From Eledone cirrhosa (taxonomy: Eukaryota): a stretch of 64,000 bases of DNA. Position numbers and translations under genes: made by a program. The stretch is taken from contig OZ024744.1 in the NCBI GenBank assembly GCA_964016885.1, positions 82,894,001-82,958,000 of the forward strand. The letters are read 5' to 3'. The notes under the pieces were generated by a model that saw only the letters and a list, made by a program, of their open reading frames with translations, was not told the DNA's origin and searched no databases. The number at the start of each line of letters is the position of its first letter. Positions within the stretch are counted from its first letter, which is position 1. Below are positions 13,297 through 53,695 of this stretch, one piece after another.

Positions 13297-13750
13297 TCCT
13301 TCGTTCTTTCATTATTTACTTCATTCTTTCTTTCTTTCTTTCTTTCCTTCTTTCTTTCTCAATCTCTCTCCTTCTCTATATCTCTATTAGATATTTCCTT
13401 ATCTCTTTTCCTCTTCTCCCCCCTCTTCTCAGTCTTTCCTATCACATTATATTTTCTCTAAGTCACTTCTTCCTTTTTCCTTCTTTACCATTTAATTCTG
13501 CTATACTTATATATACCTGACTTATTTTTTATAGTTACTTTTTCACGAGCTGCAACTTCAAATCTAACTTTTACCTCATATAAATTCTATATCATTTAAA
13601 CCTCCACACATTCTCACACTTCATCTCTTTCAACTTATACACACACACACGTATACATCTCTCTCTTCACCATCGGATCTTGTTACCCGGAGAATTACCG
13701 ATCTGCATTGTTGAGGCTTCCAAAACGACCTAAAGAAAAAAAAAAATATA

Positions 13751-13905: not shown

Positions 13906-14091
<186 letters not shown>

Positions 14092-14153
14092 TATATATGA
14101 AAGACGTAAAATAAGAAAATTTTAAAAATTAAAAATCAACTTACTAAATTTTC

Positions 14154-14235
14154 ACTTCAACTAATTAGTTTCTGTAATGGGATAAATATAGTTACATAAT
14201 ATAACTATAGAGAATTCATTACGTCATCAGGGAGT
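14154..14235 (-). ncRNA. Hammerhead ribozyme, inverted copy with two substitutions
   Basis: Reverse complement of 15078-15159 with single changes in stem I and stem II. Confidence 0.7.
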
Positions 14236-15077
14236 CTATTCTCAGCTAAGTTTCCAGGCAATGCGCGGACACTAGGAACCCATATAAAAATAATAATTCA
14301 GTGGATGAAATAAAGCTAGCGAGGACTAAATTCCGGAGCACTGAAAAAATTTCACTGCCTCTGATCAGTTGCAGATTCTAAAGAATCAATCACGTGACAC
14401 CGAAGTTAATCAGGAGCGGGGTGGTATTATGACAAGAGCCTACTACTACCATGAAACAGCAGTAAATTTTGGCAAGTTTTGCTCAACAAATAATTTGGAG
14501 ATAAATATAGAGAATTAGTACATCTATCAACATATGTGTACAGATGTACACTCATGCTAGCAAATATATAAGTTATGTCTTAGTACCGATGTATTTATCC
14601 CATTACAGAAACTAATTAATTGGAGTGAAAATTTAGTAAGTAAGTTGATTTTTAATTTTTAAAATTTTCTTATTTTACGTCTTTCATATAATTGTTCTGC
14701 ACCCCCCTGCATAGAACCACATCGGTACTAAGACATAACTTATATATTTGCTAGCATGAGTGTACATCTGTACACATATGTTGGTAGATGTACTAATTCT
14801 CTATATTTATCTCCAAATTATTTGTTGAGCAAAACTTGCCAAAATTTACTGCTGTTTCATGGTAGTAGTAGGCTCTTGTCATAATACCACCCCACTCCTA
14901 ACTGATTAACCTCGGTGTCACGTGATTGATTCTTTAGAATCTGCCACTGATCAGAGGCAGTGAAATTTTTCAGTGCTCCGGAATTTAGTCCTCGCTAGCT
15001 TTATTTCATCCACTGAATTATTATTTTTATATGGGTTCCTAGTGTCCGCACATTGCCTCGAACTTAGCTGAGAATAG

Positions 15078-15159
15078 ACTCCCTGATGACGTAATGAATT
15101 CTCTATAGTTATATTATGTAACTATATTTATCCCATTACGGAAACTAATTAGTTGGAGT
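15078..15159 (+). ncRNA. Type I hammerhead ribozyme with extended stem II and palindromic loop III
   Basis: ACTCC-CTGATGA-CGTAATG...CATTACG-GAAA-CTAATTAG-TT^GGAGT. Stem I is 5 bp; stem II is 7 bp with a distal hairpin ATAGTTAT/GTAACTAT; CTAATTAG is self-complementary. Confidence 0.88.
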
Positions 15160-15327
15160 GAAAATTTAGTAAGTAAGTTGATTTTTAATTTTTAAAATTT
15201 TCTTGTTTTACGTCTTTCATATAATTGTTCTGCACCCCCCTGCATAGAACCACATCGGTACTAAGACATAACTTATATATTTGCTAGCATGAGTGTACAT
15301 GTGTACACATATGTTGGTAGATGTACT

Positions 15328-15488
<161 letters not shown>

Positions 15489-15795
15489 CGTGTGTGTATG
15501 TATAAGTTGAAAGAGATGAAGTGTGAGAATGTGTGGAGGTTTAAATGATATAGAATTTATATGAGGTAAAAGTTAGATTTGAAGTTGCAGCTCGTGAAAA
15601 AGTAACTATAAAAAATAAGTCAGGTATATATAAGTATAGCAGAATTAAATGGTAAAGAAGGAAAAAGGAAGAAGTGACTTAGAGAAAATATAATGTGATA
15701 GGAAAGACTGAGAAGAGGGGGGAGAAGAGGAAAAGAGATGAGGAAATATCTAATAGAGATATAGAGAAGGAGAGAGATTGAGAAAGAAAGAAGGA

Positions 15796-15907
<112 letters not shown>

Positions 15908-15939
15908 ATGAATGAAATAATGAAACAAAGAAGAAATCA

Positions 15940-15979
<40 letters not shown>

Positions 15980-16128
15980 CAGAAAGAAAGAAAGAAAGAG
16001 AGAAAGAAATGATGAAAGAAAGAAACGCGAAAAAAGAAATGAGGAAATAATGTGTGGGTGGAGTAAGAGAGAACTAGTGTGTTGAAAACGGAGAGAAAAG
16101 AGGGAGAGAGAGAGAGAGAGAGAGAGAA

Positions 16129-16217
<89 letters not shown>

Positions 16218-25444: not shown

Positions 25445-25655
25445 ATACAAATAGTGAAACAATGAAATTGGGGGGTACTTCCCCGTATGTCCATTCTATT
25501 ATTAATCTATGTAAAATATATTACAAAATATCATAGTATAGATCAATAATAAAATGGACATACGGGGAACTACCCCCCAGAAACGACCGTAAAATAATGA
25601 GTCTTACTATGAATTAACCGCTTTTTGTTTAATTTCATTGTTTCACTATTTGTAC
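25445..25655. repeat. Nested fold-back with hammerhead 3'-half-like motif
   Basis: Outer IR CAAATAGTGAAACAATGAAATT/AATTTCATTGTTTCACTATTTG. An inner IR with ~40-bp arms is followed by GAAA-CGACCG-TA. Confidence 0.65.
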
Positions 25656-25656
25656 G

Positions 25657-25761
<105 letters not shown>

Positions 25762-25796
25762 GAATATGTATGTATAAATATATATATATCACCAAG

Positions 25797-26869
25797 GATC
25801 TTCAGCAAGGGAGAAGATTTAACTATCTGTGTTTACACATCAAATGTAAATCTGCGAATGACCCGTTGCACGTGTCGCCTTTCTAAAACTATACACATCG
25901 TGCTAACGTCATCCCAGTGGCGTGAATAGGATTATCGACAGCTAAAAATAGCAGCCGAGTCCTTTCAACTGAGTTAGCTCTACCATCAAGGGGCCGTGTA
26001 TATATCCAAAATTAAATTAAGGGAGTCATGTCCGAGACATGCGCCCTATCCACCGTAGAATAAGCTCAAAGATTCCAATGAATAGATCCGAGCATTATAT
26101 ATCAACTAGAAATTGATTGACATATATATATATAAAATAAAAACATGAAACAATCACAGGGGATAATTTGTAAAGTGTGTAAGCACACACAGCTAGGTAG
26201 ATAACTAATTAAAGTTTAACTAGAACTTCAAATATAGATACCTTTTAAAAATGATTAATCTTCCTTGTATATATTTCATTAAAGAAATGTATTTCACCAG
26301 TAATCCGTAAACTCACAGTAGTCAAATTCCGGATCTTCAGAAAGCCCCTTGATTGTAGAGCTAACTCAGTTGAAAGGACTTGGCTGTTATTTCTAACTGT
26401 CGATAATCCTATTCACGCCACTGGGATGACTCTGGCACGATGTGTGTAGTTTTAGAAATGCAACACGTGCGACGGGTCATTCGCAGATTTACATTTGATG
26501 TGTAAACACAGATAGTTAAATCTTCTCCCTTGCTGAAGAATCGAAAATTTGACTAATGTGAGTTTACGGATTAGTGGCGAAATATATTTCTTTAATGAAA
26601 TATATACAAGGAAGACTAATCATTTTTAAAACGTATCTATATTCGAAGTTCTAGTTAAACTTTAATTAGTTACCTACCTAGCTGTGTGTGTTTACACACT
26701 TTACAAATTATCCCCTGTGATTGTTTCATGTGTTTATTTTAGATAGATATATATGTCAATCAATTTCTAGTTGATATAAAATGCTCGGATCTATTCATTG
26801 GAAGCTTTGAGCTTATTCTACGGTGGATATGGCGCATGTCTCGGACATGACTCCCTTAATTTAATTTTG

Positions 26870-26872
<3 letters not shown>
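25797..26872. mobile_element. Retrozyme-like element: two inverted, circularly permuted ~535-bp monomers
   Basis: 25797-25994 is the reverse complement of 26344-26540. 26005-26340 is the reverse complement of 26533-26872. GATCTTCAG occurs at 25797 and 26332. Flanked by (TA)n. Confidence 0.85.
26528..26611 (+). ncRNA. Candidate hammerhead with branched stem II region
   Basis: CCTTG-CTGAAGA-[57 nt forming two hairpins]-GAAA-TATA-TA^CAAGG. Stem I is 5 bp and loop III is palindromic, but stem II closure is atypical. Confidence 0.5.
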
Positions 26873-26904
<32 letters not shown>

Positions 26905-26979
26905 TTATGTGTGTGTGTGAGTCTGTGTCTCAGTGTATGTGTGTCTGTGTGTGTGTGTATGAGTGTGTGTGTGTGTGTG

Positions 26980-27067
<88 letters not shown>

Positions 27068-35500: not shown

Positions 35501-35740
35501 CAATTATTAAATATATAAACAAATAAATAAATGCCATTGTTAATTAATAAATAAATCAACTAATACCTTAACACTTCACAAAAAGTAAAATGTTTTGTTT
35601 TAATCATTTTCTAACCCAGAAAAAAGAGAAGAAAAAAAAATGTTTCTTCCTAGTAACGTCTTTTTCTCCCTGTTTTCATATATATATATCCTAACTCGTG
35701 TGCTCCTTCTCCACATTTTAGTATTATTATTATATATTAT
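32555..35740 (+). mobile_element. Penelope-like retroelement with inverted 5' pseudo-LTR and 3' pseudo-LTR
   Basis: 32555-32862 is the reverse complement of 35395-35690. It encloses RT and GIY-YIG coding remnants and is inserted in (TA)n. Confidence 0.92.
32863..35026 (+). pseudogene. Penelope RT + GIY-YIG endonuclease, frameshifted
   Basis: IKEADKGSAVI, RPI, FDVINLYSNI, AMGTKVAPSYANLVMG, WKRYLDDCF, LPFLD, TDIFYKP, CGRPNCGIC and TCSGCQEHYIGQT...LRQRM..H appear across several frames. Confidence 0.93.
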
Positions 35741-35893
35741 ATATATATATATATATATAATATTTGAAAGTGAGTTTTTTTTTACAAAATGAAAAATAAC
35801 CGAGGTGTCGTACACGAGTGAAAGTATAAGGAAGATGAAATCGAAAATGCAACTGGAGTCTTTTTTTTTTAAATATATATATTTATTTAGTTC

Positions 35894-35929
35894 CTTTACC
35901 GGTTTCGCAGTTCTTCTGCTTTTCAAAAG
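35894..35929 (-). ncRNA. Minimal hammerhead with U3-A8 covariant core
   Basis: Minus strand: CTT-TTGAAAA-GCAG AAGAA CTGC-GAAA-CCGG-TA^AAG. Stem II is a perfect 4 bp, CCGG is palindromic, and stem I is only 3 bp. Confidence 0.6.
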
Positions 35930-35934
35930 TAGAG

Positions 35935-36340
35935 TTGAGATGGAGGGTCCCTCCATCTGAAATCCAAAGAGGGCTCGATAAGGATAAATATATATCAAAT
36001 ATATAAGAACCGCAGAGCAAATATTTATTAAAATAACGGATTAAAGAATCGCTGCTTTCACCTTTAACGGGATCTTCTGAAACTACCAAAGTCAATCTGT
36101 GAACGCAAAAGTGAATATTTCAAAAAACGTTGCAACTGGAGGAAGACAGGAAGACGATACTTTGGTTCGTGGAAACGTTCCCTGTCAAAGAACGGGAAAA
36201 AACGAATATAATACGTCATTATTTGGAGCGGTGAAAAACAATTACACGCAATGACAATTTGTTAGTTTCAGAAGATCCCGTTAAGGGTGAAAGCTGCGAT
36301 TCTTTGCTTAAACTTTAATCTGTTATTTTAATAAATATAT
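35935..36340. mobile_element. Family C element, inverted copies; intact U4A hammerhead-like motif at 36264-36314 (+)
   Basis: 35960-36100 matches 5972-6118 in reverse (with a small deletion). 36258-36340 matches 5979-6060 forward. Confidence 0.8.
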
Positions 36341-39624: not shown

Positions 39625-41965
39625 TTTCATTTCATTTATCAGCCACAAGGGCCGACATGTAGGGGACAATACAAAGACAGGGACAGTGGGTGTTTACAAT
39701 AAGGTCGAGTAAATCTGCACATGGCCAAGACTAATTTAACAATGAAGGTATAACAAATATAAAATAAACTATGTATAAATAGAACAAAATAGATAAATTC
39801 CCCTATCGCGGGTGGACGACCCAGAGGTGACTCAGGTACCCCATCAATCCTGAACCACGCTGCGCTTCTAGGGCACCCAGGGAGAGCACCCCTCACTTCA
39901 AATTAACTAGCCTATAGGCGCATGGTCAGAGTAGGCCCATTCACACGGGCCATTCTCGCCACATTCATCCACCTTTTAGCAAATGTACAGGGGGGGGGGG
40001 GGGGGGGGTCAGCACTTCTCTCTACACCCTCATTTTCCCTACCAGGTGAAACTTGAAGAAGTTGATGAGGGATTGGCCGAAGAGAAAAGTGTAAGTGTCT
40101 GTCTTCAGTCCTTTTAATCTGGTGCACCATATAACCTCTTTCGCACCTGCCACCAGACAGGAAAATTGCCTGCTTTCCTGACCAAAGGAAGGCGGTGGGT
40201 CGATCTTCACTATGGACTCGGCCGATAGCCGGGTCCGTTCTACACGCGACAGTAGCTGTTCGACATAACTCCACAAGTCAGTAATGCACGGACATTGGAC
40301 AAGTGCGTGCAGAACGGTTTCGTTGCTCTGTGCGCATTTTGGGCAAGTCCGTCTGACAGCACTTCCGTGCCTGTAGAGTTTATCCCGAAGCGGCAATGCC
40401 CCCGATAGCACTGCCAAGCGAGGGATTTCTGGAAATTGTCCATCGTCTCCGGCTCGAAAGTCCTCCGGAACGGACTGGTCAGTTCGAATTCGTCAAGGCC
40501 CAACGCCTCTCCGATGCGTCATCGCACTTGCCCACCATTAATCATCTATAGAACTCGAGAGTGGAAGTTCCACTGATCGCATTGCCCGCTTAGTAGAGGG
40601 CATTGAGTGCCTGGCAACATTCCAGGTGCCAGTCACCCAGGCTTGGTCTCTTCTTGACCCAGGACTGCAGGTCCGCCAAAGAAACGAGCTGCGGAAAGGC
40701 TCATCTGATAAACGGCGAGCACACCTGTTCACCGTTTAGGCAGGATATCTGGAGATGTCACAGCCTCAGCGCATGTCTGCGTTTCGGGGATTGTGGGAGT
40801 GGTGTTGATGTTATTGGGAAAGTGTTTGCGTTAGTGGTGTCTGTTTTTTTTGTTATGTATGCTTTTGTGTTTTGTTGGGGCTTTTTTTTTGGTGAGTTTT
40901 ATCTTTTATTTTTTGGCACTTTTGGGTTTTCCTTCATCTTCACTGCTGGAAGACAAAGGGTCTGTGGCTGTGAGTGTCTCTGTGTCTGTGTGTGCATTTA
41001 TTGTTTTGTCTATGTGTATAATTGGAGGGGTAGGGGGAGTGGGAGAGCGTTCCTCGTTTTCCCCTTGGATTGGTTTTGGTGCTGCTGGTGGTCCGACTGA
41101 TTTTGATGTTGGTGGGGTTACCCGTGTCATTGTTGTTGTTGTTCCTGGTGGTGGCTGTGGTGCATCTTTCCGTATTGACACTAGTTTTGGCAACAAAGGA
41201 GGTTTGCGAACCCCTGCATTTTTGAGCTGAGGGCAGAAGGCTTGCAGATGCGTTGCTTCCCCGCAGACAAAACAGTGCGGCCTTCCTCCCTCAGCGATTA
41301 ATTGGCTTGTTGTCCCGTCCAGCAGGCGGGCAAAATCCGGGATGTTGTTCATGCCCTCTGGTTGCATTTGGAGAGAAATCTCCAAATCCATTCTGGACCA
41401 TTCTTCTCTCTCTTTCCTTTTGATATCCAGGAGGGTAGTGTCTGTCCCCTTCCAGACTACGCATCCCAGGAGCCACCATATGTTCATTCCTGGTGGGATC
41501 CTGAGAATACGGACCTTTACTGTCCTTTTGCCCATCTAAGACGGGTGCATGATAATGCGTTCCGTTCTGAAGGGGGTCACCAAGTGCTTAATAGCAAGGG
41601 CCTCGGTTTTGAACTGTACCGAGATGGTACCGAACTGCTTGGCCCTTGCTTTATACTCATTGTCACTTCCGATGCACTTCAAAGCAGCCTCAACCTCTGC
41701 TTGGCTGGCAAGTTCCACTTTGCGTGTCTGCACTGAAATGCATCGAAAGTACACCGTCCTCGTTTGCATGGCCGCTATTTCCCCGTCCAGGTTTGCCCAG
41801 GATTTCTCCCGTTTAATTAACCTCCACGCCTGGCCATCTGTTCGTCTTTATCGCTAATATCAACATTCAATAAGCGCTTTGATTTCGCTGCTGCCGCTGC
41901 AAAGGTGGTGCCTCTGTTGATCTTGTTGTTGGTGTTGTCGTTCTTAATAATAATAACAATAACGA
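39625..41965 (-). mobile_element. L1/Tx1-clade LINE pieces: ORF1 remnant (40780-41950) joined to ORF2 C-terminus and 3' UTR (39625-40780)
   Basis: The ORF1 part has a CFVCGEATHLQAFC knuckle. The ORF2 end has CPKC...ETVLHALVQC. The 3' end CCCTTGTGGCTGATAAATGAAATGAAATC is followed by (ATT)n. Confidence 0.88.
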
Positions 41966-41985
41966 TCATTATTATTATTATTATT

Positions 41986-43980
41986 ATCATGCGATGCATC
42001 ATAGAGAGGGTAGGGTGTAAACCTGGCTTCGGTGGGGCACTGATCAATTTAGATCAATCGAAAGCATTCGATAGGGTCGACCATCGGTATCTGGAGTTTG
42101 TCCTCAAAGCAGCTGGCTTAGGCCCTGTCTTTAGAAGCTGGATCGTTGCAATGCACAGCGGCACACGCTCGGTGGTCAAAGTTAATGGCCACCTCTCGGA
42201 ACCATTTCGGCTCTCCCGATCGGTCCGTCAAGGGTGCCCTCTCTCTTCCCTTCTGTACGTATTGACTCTCGAGCCTTTACTGCGGAAGCTGGAGCTGTTG
42301 CAGGGCATCCCGCTCGAACCGGGACGTGGAAAGGCGGTGTCGGCTTATGCGGACGACATCACCGTGATGGTGTCGAACACCTCAGAAATCGAGGTGGTCG
42401 GCACCTTATTGAAAGAATATGAAAGGTTGACAGGAGCCAAACTTAACCCGGAAAAGTCGGTGGGCTTGCAGCTCGGAACCTGGAGAGGCAAGCCCATGCC
42501 GTCCAACAGCGTCGTGGGGCGCTGGACGGACGGACCAGTAAAGTTGCTCGGGGTTTGGTTCGGACCAGACCTCCAGGTGGAAAAGAATTGGGACGAGGTA
42601 ACGAGCAGAGTAGCCAGTCTCACCCAAAAATGGGCTGGGAGGAAGCTATCACTGAAAGGTCGCGCGGAGGTGGCGAATGCGTACATCGCGTCCGTCATCT
42701 ATTACCGCCTAACCGTCGTGCCTTGCCCCCGTCCGCGCCTCGTCAAGTTGGAACGGCTCCTCTTCAAATTCTTGTGGAAAGGACAAGTTCCATTGGTGAG
42801 GCGGTCCATCTGCTGCCAGCACCCTCTACACGGAGGGCTGGGCATGCCGTGGCTAATGATGCGCAGACATGCGTTGAGGCTGCGACATCTCCAGATATTC
42901 TGCCTCAATGGTGAACAGGTGTGGTCGCCGTTTATCAGACGGGCCTTTCCGCAGCTCATTTCTTTGACTGAGTCAAGAAGAGACCGAGACTGGGTGACTG
43001 GCACCTGGAATGTTGCCAGGTACTCACTGCCCTCTACCAAGCGGGCAATGCGATCAGTGGAACTTCCACTCTCGAGTTTTATAGAGGATTAGTGGTGGGC
43101 AAGTGCGATGACGCACTCGGAGAAGCTTTGGGCCTCGACGAAGTCGAACTGACCAGTCTGTACCGGAGGACTTTTGAGCCGGGGACGATGGACAATTTCC
43201 AGAAATCCCTCGCTTGGCAGTGCTACCGGGGGGCACTGCCGGTTCGGGATAAACTCTACAGGCACGGAAGTGCTGTCAGACGGACCTGCCCAAGATGCGC
43301 ACAGAACGACGAAACCGTTCTGCACGCACTTGTCCAATGTCCGTGCATTACTGACTTGTGGAGTTATGTCGAACAGCTACTGTCGCGTGTGGAACGAATC
43401 CAGTTATCGGCCGAGTCCATAGTGAAGATCGAGCCGCCACCTTCCTTAGGTCAGGAAGAGCAGGACATTTTCCTCTGTCTGGTGGCAGTTGCGAAAGAGA
43501 TTATATGGTGGACCAGGTTGGAAGGACTAAAGACAGACACTTTTCTCTTCGGCCAATCCCTCATCAACTTCTTCAAGTTTCACCTGGAAAGGAGGGTGAG
43601 GGTGGAGAGAGAAGTGCTGCCCCCCAGTACATTTGCTAAAAGGTGGGTGAATGTGGCAAGAATGGCTCGTGTGAATGGGCCTACTCTGATCATGCGCCTA
43701 TAGGCTAGCTAACTTGAGGAGAGGGGTGCTCTCCTGGGTGCCCTAGAAGCGCAGGGTGGTTCAGGATTGGTGGGGTACCCGAATCACCCCAGGGTCGTCC
43801 ACCCCCTATCGGGGAATTTATTTTGTTATATTTTGCATAGTTTATTTTATATTTTATATTTTCATTGTTAAATTAGTCTTGCCATTGTGCACTTTTACTC
43901 GACCTTATTGTAAACCCCCACTGTCCCTGTCTTTGTATTGTCCCCTACATGTCGGCCCTTGTGGCTAATAAATGAAATCA
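41986..43980 (+). mobile_element. 5'-truncated L1/Tx1-clade LINE (RT C-half, zinc finger, 3' UTR), one frameshift
   Basis: LDQSKAFDRVDH, VRQGCPLS, YADD and LLGV motifs (41905-43092 ORF), and CPRC..ETVLHALVQC (43092-43703). (ATT)n lies on both sides. Confidence 0.93.
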
Positions 43981-44218
43981 TTATTATTATTATTATTATT
44001 ATTGAATGCCATGGTTGACGGAGGCTCGGCTCTGTAAGGTATAGTAATTTTTAACCGTTAAAACAATTGTAAATTGTTTAAAACTTGAACCAAATTGTTG
44101 ATAAGACACCCTCCTCCTCGTGAGAGGGGTCTTTCTGTCCGTTATTTGGCCCTTCGGGGTTAAATAACCAGTTATTGGGGTTTTGTACCCAAAATTTCAT
44201 TTTAAACAAAAAAACAAC

Positions 44219-46315
44219 ATGGCTACGAAAAAGAAATTTCATACGTCACTCCCACTCATTCCGTCTTCTTCTTCCCCAATCATCACTACAGCAGAGAGAA
44301 GATTGTCTCTCTCCCTCCCTTCTTTAAATGTGTCTCTCTCCCTCCCTTCTCTTTCGCAAGTGACGAAAGAAAAGAAAAGTCTCGTGCAAAGCGTGCAAGG
44401 TTTCTCCACGACGACGACGACAGCGACGAAACAGGTGTGCGGGAAATACGAAAACCCAGTTCATTCGTCTGACGTCAGGAATAATAGCAGTAGCAGCCGT
44501 AATAACAACAGCAACAGTGACAATGAAAACAACAGTAGCAGCCGCAACAGCATCACCAGCAGCATAAACAACAACAGCATTAGCAGCAGCAACACCAACA
44601 ACAACCACAGCAACAGCGGCGGAGGCAGTAGTCGTAGTACCTGCAGCAACAACAAAAGTACCAGCAGCTCTGACGACAACAACAACAGCAGAGAAAAACC
44701 AATCTCATTTGCAGGTATTGCGAAAAACTTGGAAACAATCCTCATAACAAATGAGGAATTAGAGGAAGCGAAGAAGATGGTGACAAAGAACGGACACCGA
44801 GCAATCTGCAAGGCAGCGGAAAAATTTTTCGAAACCCAAGAGCACTGTACGGTCACGTACCGTACAGTAAGTACAAAATCCCGTAGGGTGGAAAGAGCCA
44901 CAGAGGCCCAAATACAAAAAGCCTTGGGGTCTGTCTGGCAGCGGAAAACGCACATCACCCGAGGCAAAAAATATGCCACCGTAGACGTACTTTTTGCCAC
45001 ACCCCAGGAGGCAAAGGCCCAATCAGTAGTGACCCTAAGGAGCGAGGAAATGGTGTTGGTGCCCTCCTACTGTGGGCAAAAAATTGTGAGGGTAAAACTG
45101 ACCCACGTCCTCCCCGGAATGACCCCTTCTTGGCTGGCCGCGTCTGTCCTCGTCGGAATCGAGGACAAAACAACTGTACTGCAAGTACAGAAAAAAGTAA
45201 GAGAAGATTGGGTCGGCTCCTCCATTGAGATGCTAATCCAAACCAACCAGGAGTGCATCGAAGCTATCCCGGATGTGATAGACTTCGATAACGGCACTCA
45301 ACTGCCCATAAGTGTTGAGGGCAAACGCCCGAAATGCTTTCGCTGTGGATCGAAGACTCACCTCAGGGCCTTCTGCAACGAGAAGACCCTGAGAAAGGAG
45401 AAAACCCCCCTCCTTCCGAATCCGGCTCCACGGCTACCAGCAACAGGACAAGCGGCAACCAGGAACGATAGGCCCGTGGCACCCATACCCACTCCACGGA
45501 AATCAAAAACAGCAGCAGCAGTGGAAATACTAACAACAACAACAGCAATACCAAATGCAGCTGCAACAGAGACTCCAGTGCAAACATCACCAACAACAAC
45601 AAGTGAAAGAGTGGAGCTGGTACCCCTCCCCGACCTCACAGAATCAGACATGGAGTGTGAGGTGGGAGAGAGATGGCAAAAGGTCGCAAGAAGGCACAAA
45701 CGCAGAAGCAGCGCATCGTCGCCTTTGAAAAGGGAGGAAAGAAATGAGAAAAGGGTAAAGTCTACTGCAAAGAGACCCACAGCAGCAACAACACCAACAC
45801 CATCACCACCCACACTAGCGCCACCATCACCACCGGCGACAACCCCACCGCCAACAACACCTTCAACACCACCACCACAAGCACCAACATCGCAAACACA
45901 ACAACAAAACACACACACCCAGCAACAACGACAAGAAAATAGCAGAACCACACCCCACCCCCAGAAAAACAAATGCACGGCAATAAATACACACAACAAG
46001 AAACTAATGACTTACATAATTGAACACACAGACATTTCACAACAGGACTACATAATACCAGCACCAATCAAAACGCCAACTAACATAAGACTGCTAAAAA
46101 TAGCACAGAAACAATACACAAATATTAAAACGAAATTCCCCAACGCAGTTGGTGATTTCAGGGACCTAGGAGGAACCATCAATCGAAGAGTATACTCAGA
46201 CATTCTCTTAGAAGAGCCGACGACCAGCCGAAGGGACGATTCAACGGTCCCTTCATCAGACGATCAAGTGAAAAGGGATGTAAAAACCATCCCTCCTCTA
46301 CCAAAAGTACGGTAA
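44219..46315 (+). CDS. LINE ORF1 (gag-like, CCHC zinc knuckle), 698 aa, uninterrupted
   Basis: ATG at 44219. Contains an Asn/Ser tract, a conserved central domain shared with the other ORF1 copies, CFRCGSKTHLRAFC, and a Pro/Thr-rich linker. Confidence 0.9.
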   Translation: MATKKKFHTSLPLIPSSSSPIITTAERRLSLSLPSLNVSLSLPSLSQVTKEKKSLVQSVQGFSTTTTTATKQVCGKYENPVHSSDVRNNSSSSRNNNSNSDNENNSSSRNSITSSINNNSISSSNTNNNHSNSGGGSSRSTCSNNKSTSSSDDNNNSREKPISFAGIAKNLETILITNEELEEAKKMVTKNGHRAICKAAEKFFETQEHCTVTYRTVSTKSRRVERATEAQIQKALGSVWQRKTHITRGKKYATVDVLFATPQEAKAQSVVTLRSEEMVLVPSYCGQKIVRVKLTHVLPGMTPSWLAASVLVGIEDKTTVLQVQKKVREDWVGSSIEMLIQTNQECIEAIPDVIDFDNGTQLPISVEGKRPKCFRCGSKTHLRAFCNEKTLRKEKTPLLPNPAPRLPATGQAATRNDRPVAPIPTPRKSKTAAAVEILTTTTAIPNAAATETPVQTSPTTTSERVELVPLPDLTESDMECEVGERWQKVARRHKRRSSASSPLKREERNEKRVKSTAKRPTAATTPTPSPPTLAPPSPPATTPPPTTPSTPPPQAPTSQTQQQNTHTQQQRQENSRTTPHPQKNKCTAINTHNKKLMTYIIEHTDISQQDYIIPAPIKTPTNIRLLKIAQKQYTNIKTKFPNAVGDFRDLGGTINRRVYSDILLEEPTTSRRDDSTVPSSDDQVKRDVKTIPPLPKVR

Positions 46316-46350
46316 GTGGTCTTTCCCATCTTTTCCACTCTATTTTAAAC

Positions 46351-47730
46351 ATGACCTCACTCAGAATAGGCAGCATAAATGCGCGTGGCTTGGGGTCGTC
46401 ATGGAAGCAGGGTCACCTGCTCAACGACCTCAGGTCACTAAACATAGATGTAGTGGCCATCAGTGAGACCAGAATCTCCGAAGCACGGGCCTTCGCACCG
46501 ATCTTCGGCGGCTACGATGTGTACACATCTCCCAGCCGTCCTGGATCGGGTGGAGGAGTTGCTGTGCTTTTTCGGAGAGGTTTGGATCTCGCCATACGGG
46601 CCATCTTCCTGGACCCAGAGGGTAAGCTGGTGGTGCTGGACGTGACCAGCGGAGACGGGCAAGCTTTCAGGCTAGTGGCCGTCTATGCCCCGACAGGAGC
46701 AGGGCGGCCTGATTTCTTCCGGCGTCTGGAGACCTTTCTTGGAACGTCCCGCTCTTTAGTGTTAGTGGGCGACTGGAACGGGATCTTAGATGCACGCTCG
46801 GACTGTGTGGGATTAGCGGATAGGGGTGGAGGGTGCAAGAGCCTCACCAACCTGCTCAGGCGTTTTGAACTGTCTGACAGGTACCGATTGGATTTCCCGA
46901 ATGTGCCAATGTGGACTTGGACAAACCGCATAGGGTCATCCAGATCATATCTAGATAGAGTATTTTGTAGGGAAATAGATAGGTCTAGCATAGGCTGTCC
47001 ACAATTCAAGATAGTCAGCTACACGGACCACAAATTCGTGACCTGTGTGCTTGACTTAGATAGGCTTCATAGACGAGGACCCGGCTACTGGAAGCTAAAC
47101 GCGTCCTTACCAGCGCGCAAGGCCTACAGAGACCGGAGTAGCGAACTAGTTAAGCGGGCGTTGACGGGGGCCATCGTCAACAACAAGTGGTGGTTTGCTC
47201 TGAAAAGAGCTATTAGAATAGAATCGATTAGGTTTAGTAAGGCTTTAGCAATAGAGAAAAATAGAGCAGAGGGAGAACTAGTTAGAAAATTAGACGAGGC
47301 GCTTAGCAAAGGCATTGCGACCGACGTACTTGCGGCGAAATTGGCCCTTGACCAATTCTTCAATGCAAAGCACGAAGGCTGCGTTGTCAGAGCTAGGGTG
47401 CGTGCTCTCAGACACGAGGGGACGAAAGCCGTTCAATGGGCCCGAGTGGCGGAGGCGCGTCGTGGCAACAAAGCCACGATCCGGTCTTTGGTGGACCACG
47501 ACGGGCGCATGCTACTCGATCCCGGGCAAATGTGTGAAGCTTTTCAGCGACACTTCGCTCAGCTGTTCGGGGGCAGCGGGGGGCCGGGTAGAGGGATGGA
47601 CTTTAGTGTCTACCTCGACGGACTGCCGCGGCTCTCGGCCACTGAGGCGAAGTGTTGCGAAAAGCCGATAACAGCCGCTGAAGTAAGGGAGGCAATGACT
47701 GGCTGCACAAGGGGTAAATCGCCTTCTTAA
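46351..47730 (+). CDS. LINE ORF2 N-terminal part: apurinic-like endonuclease, truncated before RT
   Basis: SINARGL, ISET, VYAP, VGDWN, SYLDRVF, YTDH and GYWKLN motifs. It stops at GKSP, where KSPGxDG would start the RT region. Confidence 0.92.
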   Translation: MTSLRIGSINARGLGSSWKQGHLLNDLRSLNIDVVAISETRISEARAFAPIFGGYDVYTSPSRPGSGGGVAVLFRRGLDLAIRAIFLDPEGKLVVLDVTSGDGQAFRLVAVYAPTGAGRPDFFRRLETFLGTSRSLVLVGDWNGILDARSDCVGLADRGGGCKSLTNLLRRFELSDRYRLDFPNVPMWTWTNRIGSSRSYLDRVFCREIDRSSIGCPQFKIVSYTDHKFVTCVLDLDRLHRRGPGYWKLNASLPARKAYRDRSSELVKRALTGAIVNNKWWFALKRAIRIESIRFSKALAIEKNRAEGELVRKLDEALSKGIATDVLAAKLALDQFFNAKHEGCVVRARVRALRHEGTKAVQWARVAEARRGNKATIRSLVDHDGRMLLDPGQMCEAFQRHFAQLFGGSGGPGRGMDFSVYLDGLPRLSATEAKCCEKPITAAEVREAMTGCTRGKSPS

Positions 47731-47747
47731 TAAAGAAATCATTATTG

Positions 47748-50700
47748 TTTTCAACCGTTCTAAACCTTTTATTCAAGTTTTAAATTTGATAAATTTGATA
47801 AGTTTAGAAGTGACCCACCTAATACAGGGGTTCACTCGTAAATAATACGGCCCCCCTTTACGGGGTGTCGTATTCGTATTTGCGCAAACATTTTTTTTTT
47901 TTTTAAATTTCAACATGGATAACACAAGAAACAGAGGGAGCGCTGTCAGACAACACAGAGAGAGGGAGACTTTATCAGCATGTCAACAAGACAGCATTCC
48001 AGCGGAGGTAAATATAAACGAAAATATTACAAAGGAAAAGAAGATTGTTACAGATTTAAAATTAACAAATATTTCTAACATAAACAACACCCACAATAAC
48101 ACCAACAACAACACCAACAACAACACCAGCAATAACAACAGCAACAAAAAAATAACAGCGGTAAAGTCGAGAACGACAATAACAAAATTAACAGCGGTAA
48201 GGTCGAGAACGACAATAACAATGACAATAACAACAGCCACAACAACAATAATAGTAGGAACAGTATCAACAAAAACAACAATAATAACAACAGCCACAAT
48301 AACAGTAACAACATCAACAGTATCAACGAAAACAACAACAACAACACCAACAACTGTACCAACGAAAACATCAACAATGACATCGATACCTGTAATAGGG
48401 ATCTCAGCACCACCAGGAAGACCAGTAGCGGCAGCAATAGGGGTGCTGCTGAAAAAGGGACCACTTCTTTTGCAGGTGTCGCCCGAAATATCGAGACAGA
48501 GGAGGAGATGGCAGTCGCAAGGGCCATGGTGACAAGAAGCGCCAATAGAGTCTCCCTGAAACCTCCACCCGATTTTTTCAAGGACCAGCAGCTACGGACG
48601 GTGACTTACCGCACCGTAAGCAAAATCTCACATCGGATGGAGAGAGCCACGGAGGCTCAAATCCAAAAGGCCTTAGGGTGCGTCTGGGCACGCAAAACCC
48701 ATATCACCCGAGGCAGAAAGTACGCCACAGTAGACGTACTTTACGCCCCCCCCCCCCCAGGAACCTCTTTGGAAACCCTAAAGAGTGAGGAGATAGTCTT
48801 GGTGCCCTCCTACTGCGGGCAGAAAATTGTGAGGGTCAAAGTGACCCAGGTCCCACCCGACGTGCCCATACCTTGGCTGGTCGCGTCTGTCCTTGCTGGA
48901 ATCGAGGGCAGGACAACCATGCTGCAAGTAGAGAAAATAGGGAGAGAGAACTGGTCAAGTATAGGCATGAAAATGCTAATACAAACTTACCAGGAGTATG
49001 TCGAGGCTATCCCGATATCATAGACATCGAAGAAGGACTCCAACTTCCTATAAGTGAGGAAGGAAGGCGCCCAAAATGTTATCTCTGTGGGTCAAAGGGT
49101 CACCTCAGACCCTTTTGCCCGCAGAAGACAGCGAAGAAGAAGGCTCCCCTCCTTCCAATGCCTGGTCCGCTGCTACCAAGAGCAGGGCAGGCAACACAGG
49201 CAACACATTATTCCACAGTGAGTAGGAGGCCAACGTCCGTGGCACCCATACCAAGGCCAAGGACAATTAAAACAGCGGCAGCATTGGCATCACCACCAGT
49301 AGCTACATTTGCAGTAGCAGCACCAGCAACAAAATCGCCGGAGAGGACTCCACTGCCACCACCAACAGCAGTGGAGATCATACCCCTCCCAGATACCACG
49401 GAGTCCGACATGGAGTGTGAGGCGGGAGTGAAGTGGCAAACGGTCAGCCACAAAAAAAGAAACAAGAAAAAAACCTCATCTTCACCATCCAAAAGTGAAA
49501 ACAAACAAAGAGGGGTAAAGGCTGCAAGGCGACTCGCAGCAACGCCAGCACCATCACCACCAAAAACCACTACACCGCCACTACCAGCATCACCACGAAC
49601 ATCAACATCGCAAACACAATAATACAAACATACCCAACAGCAGCAACAAGAACCCCCCCCCCCCAAAAAAAAAAAACAACAACAACAAAACATTACACAG
49701 CCATAAACATGGCATATAAAGAACTCTTAGAACATATAAAGCAGCACACAGACATTACGGACAAAAATTACTACAGCCCACCAACAAAAAGGACTCTCCT
49801 GAAAAATATAAACCTTATTGAAATTAAAATAGAACATGGTAAACATTATAATAAACATTTAAATTCTCCAACGCAGTTGGAGACTTTAGAGGGTCAGTTA
49901 TCAAAAGGATATACAGCGACATCATCTTGGATACACCCTTGACCAGTCCCTTTCCCACACAATCAGGGAAGGTAATCCCTTCTCACTTACACCATTCCTC
50001 CTCCAACATGGCTTTACTTAGAATAGGCAGTATCAATGTACGTGGCCTGGGGTCATCTTGGAAGCAGGGCCACCTGCTTAATGATCTCAGGTCACAAAAC
50101 GTATATGTGGTGGCCATCAGCGAGACCAGAATTTCCGAAGCTTGTGACTTCGCACCGATCTTCTGCGGCTACGATGTATACACATCTCCCAGCCGTCCGG
50201 GAGCGGAGTTGCTGTGCTTTTTCGGAGAGGCTTGGATCTCGCCATACGGGCCATCTTCCCGGACCCAGAATGTAAGTTGGTGGTGCTGGACGAGACAGGC
50301 AGCGAAAGCAATGCTTTCAGGCTAGTAGCCGTCTACGCCCCAACAGGGGCAGGACAGCCAGATTTCTTCAGACGTCTAGAGACCTTTCTTGGAACGTCCC
50401 GCTCTTTAGTGTTAGTGGGTGACTGGAACGGTATCTTAGATGCACGCTGGCATTATGTGGGGCTAGTAAATATTGGAAGAGGATGTAAAAGCCTCACCAA
50501 AATGCTCAGACGTTTTCAACTGTCTGACAGGTATCGACTGGATTATCCGAATGTGCCAATGTGGACATGGGCAAACCGCATCGGGTCATCCAGATCGTAT
50601 CTAGATAGGGTAATGTGTAGGGAAACAGATAAGGCTAGCATAGGTTGTCCACAATTTAAAGTAGTCGACTACACGGATCACAAATTTGTGATCTGTGAAG

Positions 50701-53695
50701 TCGAATTAGATAGACTTCATAGGCAAGGACCCGGTTACTGGAAGCAGAACGCGTCTTTCACGGCGCGCAAAGCTTACAGAGACCGGATAAACGAATTAGT
50801 TAAGCGTGCGTTGACGGGTACGATCGTCAACAACAGGTGGTGGATAACCCTGAAAAGGGCAATTAGAGTAGAATCAATAAGGTTTAGCCAAGAAGTAAAG
50901 ATAGAAGAAAATAGAGTAGAAGGAGAGCTAGTTAGACAGCTAGAAGAGGCGTTTAGGACAGGCATCGCAACCGACGTGCTTGCGGCAAGATTGGCACTCT
51001 GCCAATCCTTCAATGTAAAGCACAAAGGCTGTGTTGTCAGCTAGAACGCGTTCTCTGAGACAAGAGGCGACAAAAGCTGTCCAATGAGCCCGTGTGGTGG
51101 AGGCGCGACGTGGCAACAAAGCCACAATTCAATCCTTGCCTGACCAAAACGGACACATGTTACTCGAGCCCGAGCAGATGTGTGCGGCTTTTCAACAGCA
51201 CTTTGCTCAACTGTTCGGGAGCGGCGGCTGGCCGGATCGGAGTATGGATTTCAGTACATACCTCGACGGACTGCCGCGGCTCCCGACGGACTGCCGCGGT
51301 TCTCGACGACCACAGCGCAGCGCTGCGAACAGCCGATAACAGCAGGTGAAATACGGGAAGCGATGTCTGACTGCACGAGGGATAAATCGACAGGTTTGGA
51401 TGGTCTGCTCTACGAGTCTTATGCGTATATGTCAGACTTGTTTGGCGATCTCTTGGCATATGTCTACTGCAACGGGCAGCAGAACGGGACCGTTTCCAGT
51501 TTTGTGAGCCCTGGAGCGGTGGCGCTGCTGAGAAAAGACCCAAACAAGGGGGACGTTATAGACTTCAGGCCCATAACTCTGCTAAACGCAGAGTTTAAGA
51601 TTTTGGCCAAGGTGTTAGCAAATAGATTGGCGCTTGTCGTCGGTGATCTGGTGGGAGAGTCGCAGGCATGCGCCATCCCGGACAGATCTATCCACGACAA
51701 CCTCTATCTCATGCGATACATCATAGAGAGGGTGGTTAATGAACCTGACACGGGTGGAGCTCTGTTCAACTTGAATCAATGTAAAGCATTTGATAGGGTC
51801 GACCATCGGTACCTGGCTGCGGTCCTCGAGGCGGCCGGCTTCGGGCCCGTTTTTAGGGGCTGGATCGCTGCGATGCACTGCGACATCTGCTCAATTGTGA
51901 TGGTGAATGGTCACATGTCGCAGCATTTCAGCATCATGCGTTCGGTCCGCCAGTGTTGCTCCTATCTTCCCTTTTGTACGTACTGGCCCTCGACCCGTTA
52001 CTGCACAAATTGAAGACGATGAGGGGCGTCCCACGCGAACTAGGATGCGGGAGATCCGTGTCAGCTTACGCCGACGACGTCACCGTGGTGGTGTCGAGCA
52101 CCAAACACATCCGGATGCTCGGCACCGCTCTCAAGGAATACGAAGCGGTGACAGGAACAGAGATAAACCAGGAAAAGTCGGTGGGCTTGCAGCTCGGCAC
52201 CTGGAGAGGCAAGTCCATGCCGTCCGACAGCGTTGTTGGGCGCTGGACGGAAGGACTGGTTAAATAGCTCGGGGTCTGGTTCGGTCCGGACCTCCAGATG
52301 GAGAAAAACTGGTGCTAGGTGACGAGCAGGGTGGCCTCTCTTTCACAGAAATGGGCCAAGAGGGGGACTGTCTCTGATAGGTCGGGCGGAGGTGGCGAAT
52401 GCGTACATAGCGTCCGTCATCTGCTACCGCCTGACCATCATACCTTGCCCCCGCCCAACTCTGACCAAAATGGAGCCCCTTCTCTTCCGCTTTTGGTGGA
52501 AGGGACGTGCTCCCATGGTCAGACGATCCATTTGCTGTCAACACCCGTTGCGAGGAGGAGAAGGCATGCCGTGGCTGATGATGCGAAAACATGCGCTGAA
52601 GCTGCGAATGCCTGGTGCTTCCTTGACGGTGAACAGATGTGGTCACCGTTTGCCAGACGCGCTTTTCCCCAGCTCGTCTCCTTGACGAAGCTGCAGTTCT
52701 GGATCAGGAAAAGACCGAGGGATAGCGCTTGGAATCTGGAATGTCTCCAAGCGCTCACCACCCTCTATCAGCTGGGCACTAGTAACGGTGGAACATCCAC
52801 CTCGGCGTTCTATAGAGGGGAAGAGTGACGACGTTCTCGGGGAGACCCTGGGCGACGAAGACGATCAGCTGTTTGCTCTCTTCAAGAGAACTTTCAGACC
52901 TGGGCCTATGGACAACTACCAGAAATCTCTGGTTTGGTAGTTCTACCGGGGAGCGTTGCCGGTTCGGGATAAGCTCTACGGGCACGGAGGTGCTATCAGC
53001 CGAGCCTGTCCGAGATGCGCACAGGGTGACGAAACCGGCCTGCACGCACTCGTTCAGTGCCCGAGGATTGCTGACTTGTGGAACTATGTCGAACAGTTGC
53101 TGCCGCGTGTATGACGGATTCGGTTATCGACTGAGTCTATTGTGCAGACAGCGCCGCCATCCTCCTTTAAAGGGGAGGAAGGGAAGGCAGTTTTCATTTG
53201 CCTGGTGTCCATAGCGAAAGAGACTGTGTGGTGGACAAGGTTGAAAGGGTTGAAGACGGACACTTTCCTCTTCGGCCAATCCCTGATTAACTTTTTCAAG
53301 TTTCAGTTGAAGAGGAAAATCAGGGTGGAGAGGCAAGTGTTGTCTTCTAGTAAGGTTGTTGGTTGTTGAAATGTGGGTGAAAGTGGCGAGTCTGGTCCAA
53401 GTGAACGGGCCCGCTCTGAGTATGCACCTGTAGACTGCGGAGTAGGAAAACTGAGAGAGGGTGCTTGCCCTGGAGATCAGGGTGGCCGTGGTCTTTTGTG
53501 TGGTTTTCGCCACGAGTGACCCTCGGAAAATCCCCCCTATTGGAGAATTTTTGTTGTTTTAATTCTTTTGATATTTCAATCTTGTTATAACCTTTTTTTA
53601 CATGGCCAAAACCCACTTTGTATCGCCCTGTACCGTTCTGTGCCCTCTCTAATGTTTTTCTTTATGTCAGCCCTTGTGGCCAATAAAGAAACCAG
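47748..53695 (+). mobile_element. Near full-length, decayed L1/Tx1-clade LINE
   Basis: ORF1 remnants at 47915-49980 (CYLCGSKGHLRPFC). ORF2 remnants at 50008-53432 (EN motifs, KSTGLDGL, FRPITLLN, KAFDRVDH, YADD, zinc finger) with many frameshifts. 3' end CCCTTGTGGCCAATAAAGAAAC. Confidence 0.93.

What the first reader, a model, noticed from the sequence alone, without database searches (positions are those of the whole stretch)
25797..26872. Two inverted monomers in different circular permutations, with a possible four-way-junction hammerhead
The left arm (minus strand) runs from one CTGAAGA to the next (535 nt). It reads through the junction (...TTTTGGATATATACACG-GCCCCTTG...) that forms the two ends of the right arm. 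Circular permutation points to a circular or tandem RNA template. Stem I, the core, GAAA and the TATA loop fit a hammerhead, but the stem II position holds two adjacent hairpins in both copies. The monomer length is nearly the same as that of the apparently unrelated 14-kb element.
Basis: partly seen in the sequence, partly recalled or inferred. Interest (0 to 1): 0.75.

Follow-up and report, generated by a model that had tools for sequence, protein, structure and literature searches.

The report
Pseudoknotted hammerhead retrozyme, two-armed insertion
This is one worn copy of an abundant non-coding jumping repeat that sits as two back-to-back arms in a TA microsatellite, likely pasted by a Penelope-type retrotransposon enzyme, and it carries a hammerhead motif predicted to cut its own RNA and to be braced by an unusually long knot rather than by the four-way junction first proposed.

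Summary
In detail: two inverted arms, 94% identical, and the left arm reads through a head-to-tail junction. It is one copy of a non-coding family with a ~538-nt unit (1,853 exact hits of a 24-mer). Arms end at two fixed sites 99 nt apart, joined to (TA)n. In 36 of 45 inverted pairs there is one arm of each kind; inner ends vary. This is the Penelope-like insertion footprint, so the 'permutation' alone does not show an RNA circle. The hammerhead is real as a conserved fold: core pair 3-8 is C-G in 78 and U-A in 183 genomic hits, mismatched in 13. The supported fold is a three-way type I hammerhead with the same cut (after 26606). It has a 9-bp stem III, a U·U-closed stem II and a covarying 13-15-bp pseudoknot between loop II and the 5' flank. 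Cleavage, circles and the partner enzyme are untested; no RNA run was listed. The scan has already noted two-armed retrozymes on other DNA. Verdict: new variant of a known kind.

The parts
26344..26877 (+). Right arm: one whole monomer (unit positions 1-534), ending at the distal fixed end (site B) in the TA microsatellite
25999..26344 (-). Left arm, inner part: unit positions ~186-534, starting at the CTGAAGA core (inversion breakpoint)
   Evidence: 94% to the right arm
25995..25998 (-). Head-to-tail junction letters (CACG) between two units
   Evidence: the same junction in other loci and in run contigs
25787..25994 (-). Left arm, outer part: unit positions 1-~199, then a deleted or degenerate end. 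The family rule predicts an end at unit position 435.
   Evidence: rule; origin of the last 12 letters is ambiguous
26507..26522 (+). Pseudoknot 5' strand (flank upstream of stem I)
26524..26532 (+). Hammerhead stem I, 5' strand (pairs with 26607-26615; one C·A mismatch in the younger subfamilies)
26533..26539 (+). Catalytic core C3-A9 (CUGAAGA); U3/A8 form in the other subfamilies
26540..26578 (+). Stem II with long loop II. Family form: U·U, then CCR/UGG. This copy has A·C at the closing position and an extra base.
26541..26547 (+). Mutation hotspot just 3' of the core (unexplained)
26546..26560 (+). Pseudoknot 3' strand inside loop II
26579..26606 (+). G12-A13-A14-A15.1, 9-bp stem III (26582-26590 with 26597-26605), and AUA triplet; predicted cut after 26606
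26607..26615 (+). Stem I, 3' strand
26268..26340 (-). Second hammerhead copy in the left arm, lacking the 5' strands of stem I and of the pseudoknot (cut off by the inversion)
26779..26877 (+). 99-nt 'tail' between the two fixed ends (site A = 26778, site B = 26877)
   Evidence: loose ends at 26778
25660..25790 (.). Left (CA)n/(TA)n microsatellite flank
26872..27066 (.). Right (TA)n/(TG)n microsatellite flank; no target-site duplication discernible

Best explanation
It is an aged copy of a non-coding ~538-nt tandem repeat family (an animal non-LTR retrozyme) lying as two inverted arms in (TA)n, likely copied by a Penelope-like (probably Neptune-clade) reverse transcriptase/GIY-YIG enzyme, and each unit carries a three-way type I hammerhead fold predicted to self-cleave after 26606 and to be braced by a 13-15-bp loop II pseudoknot. 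Shown: family, tandem junction, two fixed ends 99 nt apart used one per arm, variable inner ends, (TA)n targets, and conservation and covariation of the fold. Inferred steps: (1) a source copy with two ribozymes is transcribed and cut to a unit-length RNA; (2) that RNA is probably closed to a circle; (3) the borrowed enzyme cuts both strands in (TA)n and primes reverse transcription from each DNA end, one at site A and one at site B; (4) the two cDNAs stop at variable points and are joined back to back. This particular copy is probably dead: stem II of the right arm is mutated and the left arm holds two incomplete halves.
For: Family: 104 matches from 40 scored of 3,124 candidates; 1,853 exact hits of a 24-mer. 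Footprint: in 75 non-overlapping loci taken in genome order (86 fetched, 11 overlapping dropped), 119 of 130 arms end at site A (62) or site B (57). Of 45 inverted pairs, 36 have one of each, 2 are B/B, none A/A and 7 have a degraded end. Autonomous elements with RT + GIY-YIG in the same genome also end at two sites 66 nt apart in (TA)n. PMC8557442 (passages) and PMC11167929 (parts 1-2 of 4) describe this tandem/inverted/tail footprint and two internal start sites. Ribozyme: whole-genome exact counts of a 21-mer give C3-G8 78, U3-A8 183, U3-G8 4, C3-A8 9; PMC4209133 reports the same swap in Penelope hammerheads. On 113 aligned copies the three-way fold plus pseudoknot has 91.0% of cells paired and 81 double-change cells against 34.7±5.5 in shuffles (0/500; 44 of the 81 are the 3-8 pair); slid controls are 35-46% paired. 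The 13 core pseudoknot pairs are 92.6% paired, with U-A to C-G (6 copies) and A-U to G-C (11 copies). Stem I has U-A to C-G in 5 copies. U10.1·U11.1 occurs naturally (PMC3088659, passage), and an unrelated family here has the same U-CCA...UGG-U closure (L052). Sister segments are more alike (median 93.0%, 127 pairs) than random pairs (89.4%).
Against: No cleavage, RNA or circle data: no RNA holder was listed. Only 3 of 179 arms that reach the cut region end within 3 nt of the predicted cut, so templates were uncut or re-ligated. In PMC11167929 uncut RNA was the main substrate, and in the 2026 preprint only 1 of 9 tested retrozymes cleaved. No arm above 1,080 nt was found in 75 loci (longest 898), fewer than simple rolling on a circle might give; two loci cross the junction twice (L004, L208). 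Covarying cells come from a few subfamily events, not independent copies, and pairs with double changes (11) do not exceed shuffles (64/500). The first C of stem II is unpaired in 18 of 113 copies. No sequence link to any of 40 autonomous loci was found, so the partner is not identified. Rfam does not recognise the fold.
Confidence: 0.8

Rival explanations
1. Same element and fold, but the template is an uncut linear read-through transcript of a tandem copy; the ribozyme only trims transcripts or needs the enzyme, and no circle is involved.
For: Arms read through the cut site in most of 179 cases. No arm longer than two units in 75 loci. PMC11167929 found unprocessed RNA to be the dominant substrate in vitro.
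Against: A family copied with 5' truncation needs a way to regain more than one unit; 26 of 75 loci have an arm longer than one unit. Selection kept the core pair and helices. Circles were shown for coral, mussel and axolotl retrozymes (PMC7229834, passages).
Confidence: 0.3
2. A different branched hammerhead: in the older subfamilies the hairpin right before G12 (up to 6-7 bp) serves as stem II, and the whole pseudoknot strand is a 24-26-nt insertion between A9 and position 10.1.
For: In the long-insert subfamilies a 5-7-bp hairpin can form directly before GAAA, and its two strands change together. Position 9/10.1 carries an extra base in Penelope hammerheads (PMC4209133).
Against: In the window's own subfamily this hairpin is reduced to 2 pairs (G·G in 73 of 112 at the third pair; the alignment is gapped there). 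The extra U of the older copies also extends the CCR/UGG stem. The CC...GG closure is shared by all subfamilies and by an unrelated family.
Confidence: 0.12
3. First reader's four-way hammerhead with GAAA at 26597, a TATA loop and two hairpins in place of stem II.
For: It gives the same cut site. A GAAA-TATA-TA minimal stem III is common in other families here, and 5 of 179 arms have lost 18 nt to give that minimal form.
Against: Its A13 is G in 13 of 136 copies, mostly one subfamily, and in about half of contig depth. Covariation is near the shuffled level (0.065 against 0.061, 22/500), and the inner pairs of the first hairpin are 69% paired. It needs a 9-bp hairpin to be broken.
Confidence: 0.04
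4. 5'-truncated ends (pseudo-LTRs) of an autonomous Penelope-like element rather than a non-autonomous unit.
For: Autonomous elements here leave the same two-armed short insertions.
Against: Upstream of unit position 1 lies the unit's own 3' end or, in a few loci, under 90 nt before the inverted arm. No similarity to 40 ORF-bearing loci; only 40 of 150 listed loci were fetched.
Confidence: 0.05

Closest known systems
Animal non-LTR retrozymes (PMC7229834, passages read; bioRxiv 10.64898/2026.07.22.740005, parts 1-3 of 5 read)
   Same: Non-coding tandem unit, low GC, one type I hammerhead per unit, dispersed monomers and short multimers, co-occurring with Penelope-like elements.
   Different: The unit is longer than the ~300-bp units of PMC7229834, though within the 51-972 bp range of the preprint. 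Stem III is a stable 9-bp hairpin rather than a short palindrome, and there is a long pseudoknot. Two fixed ends and inverted arms did not appear in the parts I read. Circles are not shown here.
Penelope-like elements, EN+ clades (PMC8557442, passages; PMC11167929, parts 1-2 of 4; PMC4209133, parts 1-2 of 4)
   Same: Partial tandems, an inverted 5'-truncated copy, a tail at one end only, (TA)n preference, a hammerhead in the repeat, and the U3-A8 core variant.
   Different: No ORF. The tail is 99 nt rather than 30-40 nt (66 nt in a Neptune-type family of this genome). The 38-44-nt core spacer exceeds the 7-17-nt descriptor and matches the 35-50-nt 'half core' cases mentioned for Naiads.
Pseudoknot-stabilised hammerheads (PMC3088659, section 7 and passages read)
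   Same: Base pairing between the stem I side and loop II in place of loop-loop contacts (about 40% of representatives); natural U10.1·U11.1.
   Different: The tested example there has 6 bp, and repetitive type I representatives were left out of part of that analysis. Here it is 13-15 bp in an animal repeat.
Type-SGC scrambled hammerheads (PMC10085705, abstract and outline only)
   Same: Pseudoknotted hammerhead.
   Different: Here the strands are in the ordinary type I order, so this is not a non-circular permutation.

Membership tests
Type I hammerhead ribozyme | CUGANGA and GAAA core plus NUH triplet, conserved | tested here: met
   U4 113/113, G5 110, A6 112, A9 112, G12 109, A13 and A14 113, U16.1 111, H17=A 109 of 113. 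Part of the 5' core was preselected by the search patterns.
Type I hammerhead ribozyme | 3-8 tertiary Watson-Crick pair | tested here: met
   78 C-G, 183 U-A, 13 mismatched
Type I hammerhead ribozyme | Stems I and III | tested here: met
   stem III 96.8% paired; stem I 98% at the three core pairs, compensatory change at one outer pair
Type I hammerhead ribozyme | Stem II closed by a 10.1-11.1 pair (usually G-C) | tested here: inconclusive
   U·U in 104 of 113, then three pairs 90.8% paired; U·U is a known natural variant (PMC3088659); a competing hairpin exists in older subfamilies
Type I hammerhead ribozyme | Match to an Rfam hammerhead model | tested here: not met
   no hit at E up to 10; the long loop II probably defeats the models (inference)
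Type I hammerhead ribozyme | Site-specific self-cleavage | not testable with these tools
   no RNA reads; 5' ends are not clearly enriched at the cut
   GGAA in 13 of 136 copies and about 54% of contig depth in X1
Non-LTR retrozyme | Non-coding head-to-tail unit with one type I hammerhead per unit | tested here: met
   no ORF of 150 aa or more in the element
Non-LTR retrozyme | Genomic copies with two consecutive ribozymes | tested here: met
   arms spanning two ribozyme regions, e.g. L188 and L124; intactness of both copies was not scored. Not true of this window's copy.
Non-LTR retrozyme | Expressed as linear and circular monomer RNA | not testable with these tools
   no RNA holder listed
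Non-autonomous Penelope-like element | Partial tandem plus inverted 5'-truncated copy, tail at one end, microsatellite target | tested here: met
   36 of 45 inverted pairs have one end of each kind; flanks
Non-autonomous Penelope-like element | 3'-end similarity to an autonomous partner | tested here: inconclusive
   none among 40 loci of 150 listed (10,596 candidates); one fusion to a Neptune-type 3' end at the predicted cut in L089

The most novel reading that the evidence does not exclude
Animal retrozymes include a hidden class of monomer-competent type I hammerheads braced by a very long (13-15 bp) loop II pseudoknot, missed by Rfam and by short-loop descriptors. In addition, the mutation hotspot just 3' of the core, where sister arms of one insertion disagree 3-5 times more often than elsewhere and where many arms stop, is a genomic fossil of an RNA-level obstacle (a template jump, unusual linkage or modified base) met on every round of copying.
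Probability: 0.2. Interest if true: 0.62.

Novelty: new variant of a known kind. Interest (0 to 1): 0.38.

Why it matters
The family gives a natural mutagenesis series for a hammerhead that standard searches miss. It has a compensatory core swap, a U·U-closed stem II and a long covarying pseudoknot, all testable in one transcription assay. The strict 'one arm from each start site' pattern links retrozymes to the Penelope enzyme by mechanism, not only by co-occurrence, and constrains how that enzyme uses its two start sites in vivo. Each ingredient has precedent, and the two-armed footprint has been noted repeatedly in this scan, so the surprise is moderate.

Tried and rejected
Rfam: no hammerhead hit in the region; the 150 listed whole-window hits are microRNA/sRNA models on simple repeats, all below gathering score. 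RNA evidence: no RNA holder listed; three contig sets of one sample show only presence, variants, the junction and the site A end. 5' ends at the predicted cut: 3 of 179 arms, no clear enrichment. Homology to the 14-kb element: none. Partner search: no similarity to 40 GIY-YIG loci. Generality of the pseudoknot: a shuffle test over about 60 other hammerhead-like motifs reached p<0.05 in only 4, so the similar pairings seen by eye in the L052, L216, L160 and 14-kb families are leads only. A second, scrambled ribozyme cutting at the hotspot was considered by eye and rejected because no conserved partner strands were found. Apparent 5'-end clusters at unit positions 204 and 226 are partly alignment breaks at divergent stem II sequence. 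Literature: no paper held all of hammerhead ribozyme/pseudoknot/loop II/metazoan/tandem repeats or retrozyme/twin priming; searches listed nothing on this fold, judged from titles and abstract starts. The library lacks most subscription papers, and I saw no supplements (the preprint's are closed; the supplementary file of PMC8557442 with 'half core' motifs was not opened), so prior description cannot be excluded.

Full report
Observation. The window lies in a 3.0-Gb animal genome rich in microsatellites; that it is a cephalopod is my impression and a label in earlier notes, not tested. The right arm 26344-26877 (+) matches the minus strand in two pieces, 26344-25999 and 25994-25799, each 94% identical. 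Numbering the right arm 1-534, the left arm is positions ~186-534, four junction letters, then 1-~199. CTGAAGA starts at 26340 and 25805 on the minus strand, 535 nt apart. The description is accurate. The 14-kb element has a 533-nt period but no sequence similarity.

Family and footprint. The unit is a dispersed family (104 matches from 40 scored of 3,124 candidates; 1,853 exact hits of a 24-mer). I took the first 100 hits of that 24-mer in genome order as 86 loci, dropped 11 overlapping ones and mapped 130 arms in 75 loci. Outer ends fall at position ~435 (62 arms) or ~534 (57), 11 elsewhere, and run into (TA)n. Inner ends are spread over the unit. Of 45 inverted pairs, 36 have one arm of each kind, 2 are 534/534, none 435/435 and 7 have a degraded end. 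Upstream of position 1 lies the unit's own 3' end, leaving no room for an ORF. Sister segments are closer than random pairs (median 93.0% against 89.4%). Partial tandems, an inverted truncated copy, a tail at one end and (TA)n targets are the described footprint of Penelope-like elements (PMC8557442, passages), and the tail is the stretch between two internal reverse-transcription starts (PMC11167929, parts 1-2 of 4). The genome holds young RT + GIY-YIG elements with a Cys-rich linker that I recall as the Neptune mark. One family has 97-98% identical proteins and two ends 66 nt apart. The left arm's permutation therefore comes from a fixed tandem junction, a variable inversion point and a damaged outer end. 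It needs a more-than-unit template but does not say circle.

Which hammerhead. Two registers share stem I and the cut after 26606. The other uses GAAA at 26579 with a 9-bp stem III. Among 136 copies the second GAAA is GGAA in 13, 11 of them in one older group, while the first GAAA is intact in 128 with scattered changes. In 113 aligned copies (6 of 119 distinct ones with large indels left out) A13 and A14 of the first are invariant, and the A-to-G change in the second keeps a U-G pair in stem III. Run contigs show the same change in about 54% of summed depth. The four-way register barely exceeds shuffles. Five of 179 arms have lost 18 nt between two direct repeats and show the minimal GAAA-TATA-TA form, which may be the ancestral state (inference).

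Evidence of selection. Whole-genome exact counts of a 21-mer around the core give C3-G8 78, U3-A8 183, U3-G8 4 and C3-A8 9. This is probably one historical swap between subfamilies whose majority sequences differ at about 25 of 534 positions (read by eye), but it hits exactly the tertiary pair, as reported for Schistosoma Penelope hammerheads (PMC4209133, parts 1-2 of 4). Stem I has 9 positions with a compensatory change in 5 copies. Stem II closes with U·U (104 of 113) and three pairs. U·U is known in nature (PMC3088659), and an unrelated 459-nt family here has the same closure. Loop II holds a strand complementary to the flank upstream of stem I: 13 pairs 92.6% paired plus two frayed pairs (66%), with double changes in 6 and 11 copies at two positions. 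The whole fold has 81 double-change cells against 34.7±5.5 in shuffles and 91% pairing against 35-46% when slid. In the window copy the duplex is -11.8 kcal/mol, reached by 0.75% of 2,000 shuffles. Caveats: cells are not independent events; pairs with double changes do not exceed shuffles (64/500); and in older subfamilies a hairpin just before G12 competes with stem II. Pseudoknots between the stem I side and loop II are known (PMC3088659, section 7). I did not find one of this length in an animal repeat in searches.

How it likely works. Shown: family, junction, two fixed ends used one per arm, target, conserved fold. Inferred: a copy with two ribozymes is transcribed, cut and probably circularised, as shown for other animal retrozymes (PMC7229834, passages). 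A Penelope-type enzyme cuts (TA)n, primes from both DNA ends at the two sites, and the cDNAs are joined back to back. Against or open: only 3 of 179 arms end within 3 nt of the cut; no arm exceeds 898 nt in the 75 loci, though 26 exceed one unit; no RNA run was listed; no partner sequence was found among 40 loci. One locus, L089, joins a Neptune-type 3' end to the unit at the predicted cut, a single suggestive case. The 2026 preprint (parts 1-3 of 5) proposes the Penelope origin of retrozymes and saw cleavage in 1 of 9 tested. The window's own copy is probably inactive.

Unexplained. Sister segments disagree at unit positions 198-200 and 202-204 (window 26541-26547) in 12-21 of 39-40 pairs, against about 10% elsewhere, with all substitution types and short deletions (position 201 is at background, and some pairs may be counted twice through overlapping loci). 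Of 53 genome-order arms that reach position 207, 8 stop within ~188-206, several at CTGAAGA as the window's left arm does; I estimate about 3.5 expected, a weak excess. This looks like an obstacle to reverse transcription and is not at the predicted cut.

Verdict. A real feature: a non-autonomous Penelope-type retrozyme with a three-way, pseudoknotted type I hammerhead. Earlier AI notes of this scan describe two-armed retrozymes in this and other genomes and scrambled hammerheads in this genome; none matches this sequence, and this fold is in ordinary order. New variant of a known kind; interest 0.38.

Noticed in passing
window 14090-15346: A second, unrelated hammerhead repeat (533-nt period; cores at 15083 + and 14230 -) with a 7-bp stem II, a long loop II and a palindromic loop III, laid out as inverted arms. 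Relatives in other loci show compensatory changes in stem II.
   Followed up: partly
window 13049-13658 and 15482-16171: The DNA flanking the 14-kb element is itself an inverted duplication (464 nt at 96%, plus 340 nt at 88%).
   Followed up: no
window 8255 (+) and 61302 (+): Two more hammerhead motifs of short-loop type I form, each with relatives in other loci.
   Followed up: partly
window 35725-35949 (-): 3' end of a young RT + GIY-YIG (Neptune-type) element whose 3' region carries a U3-A8 minimal hammerhead.
   Followed up: partly
window 25468-25580: A ~113-nt near-perfect inverted repeat, MITE-like; it gives weak microRNA-model hits below gathering score.
   Followed up: no
window 41821-52010 and 57872-59695: Fragments of LINE-type retrotransposons (RVT_1, zf-RVT, Exo_endo_phos), partly duplicated and inverted.
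   Followed up: no
L191 and L223: Two loci share a disrupted core (GTGACCA in place of CUGAAGA), suggesting a subfamily that moved without a working ribozyme.
   Followed up: no
L089:1931-2091: A Neptune-type 3' end is fused to the unit at the predicted ribozyme cut, a possible template switch.
   Followed up: partly
L050, L052, L053, L060, L069, L086, L160, L205, L216, L223 and other loci: Many further hammerhead families in this genome have long or branched stem II regions (26-91 nt between the core halves); L050 and L223 appear to have two adjacent hairpins before GAAA-TATATA, closer to a true four-way junction than this element.
   Followed up: no
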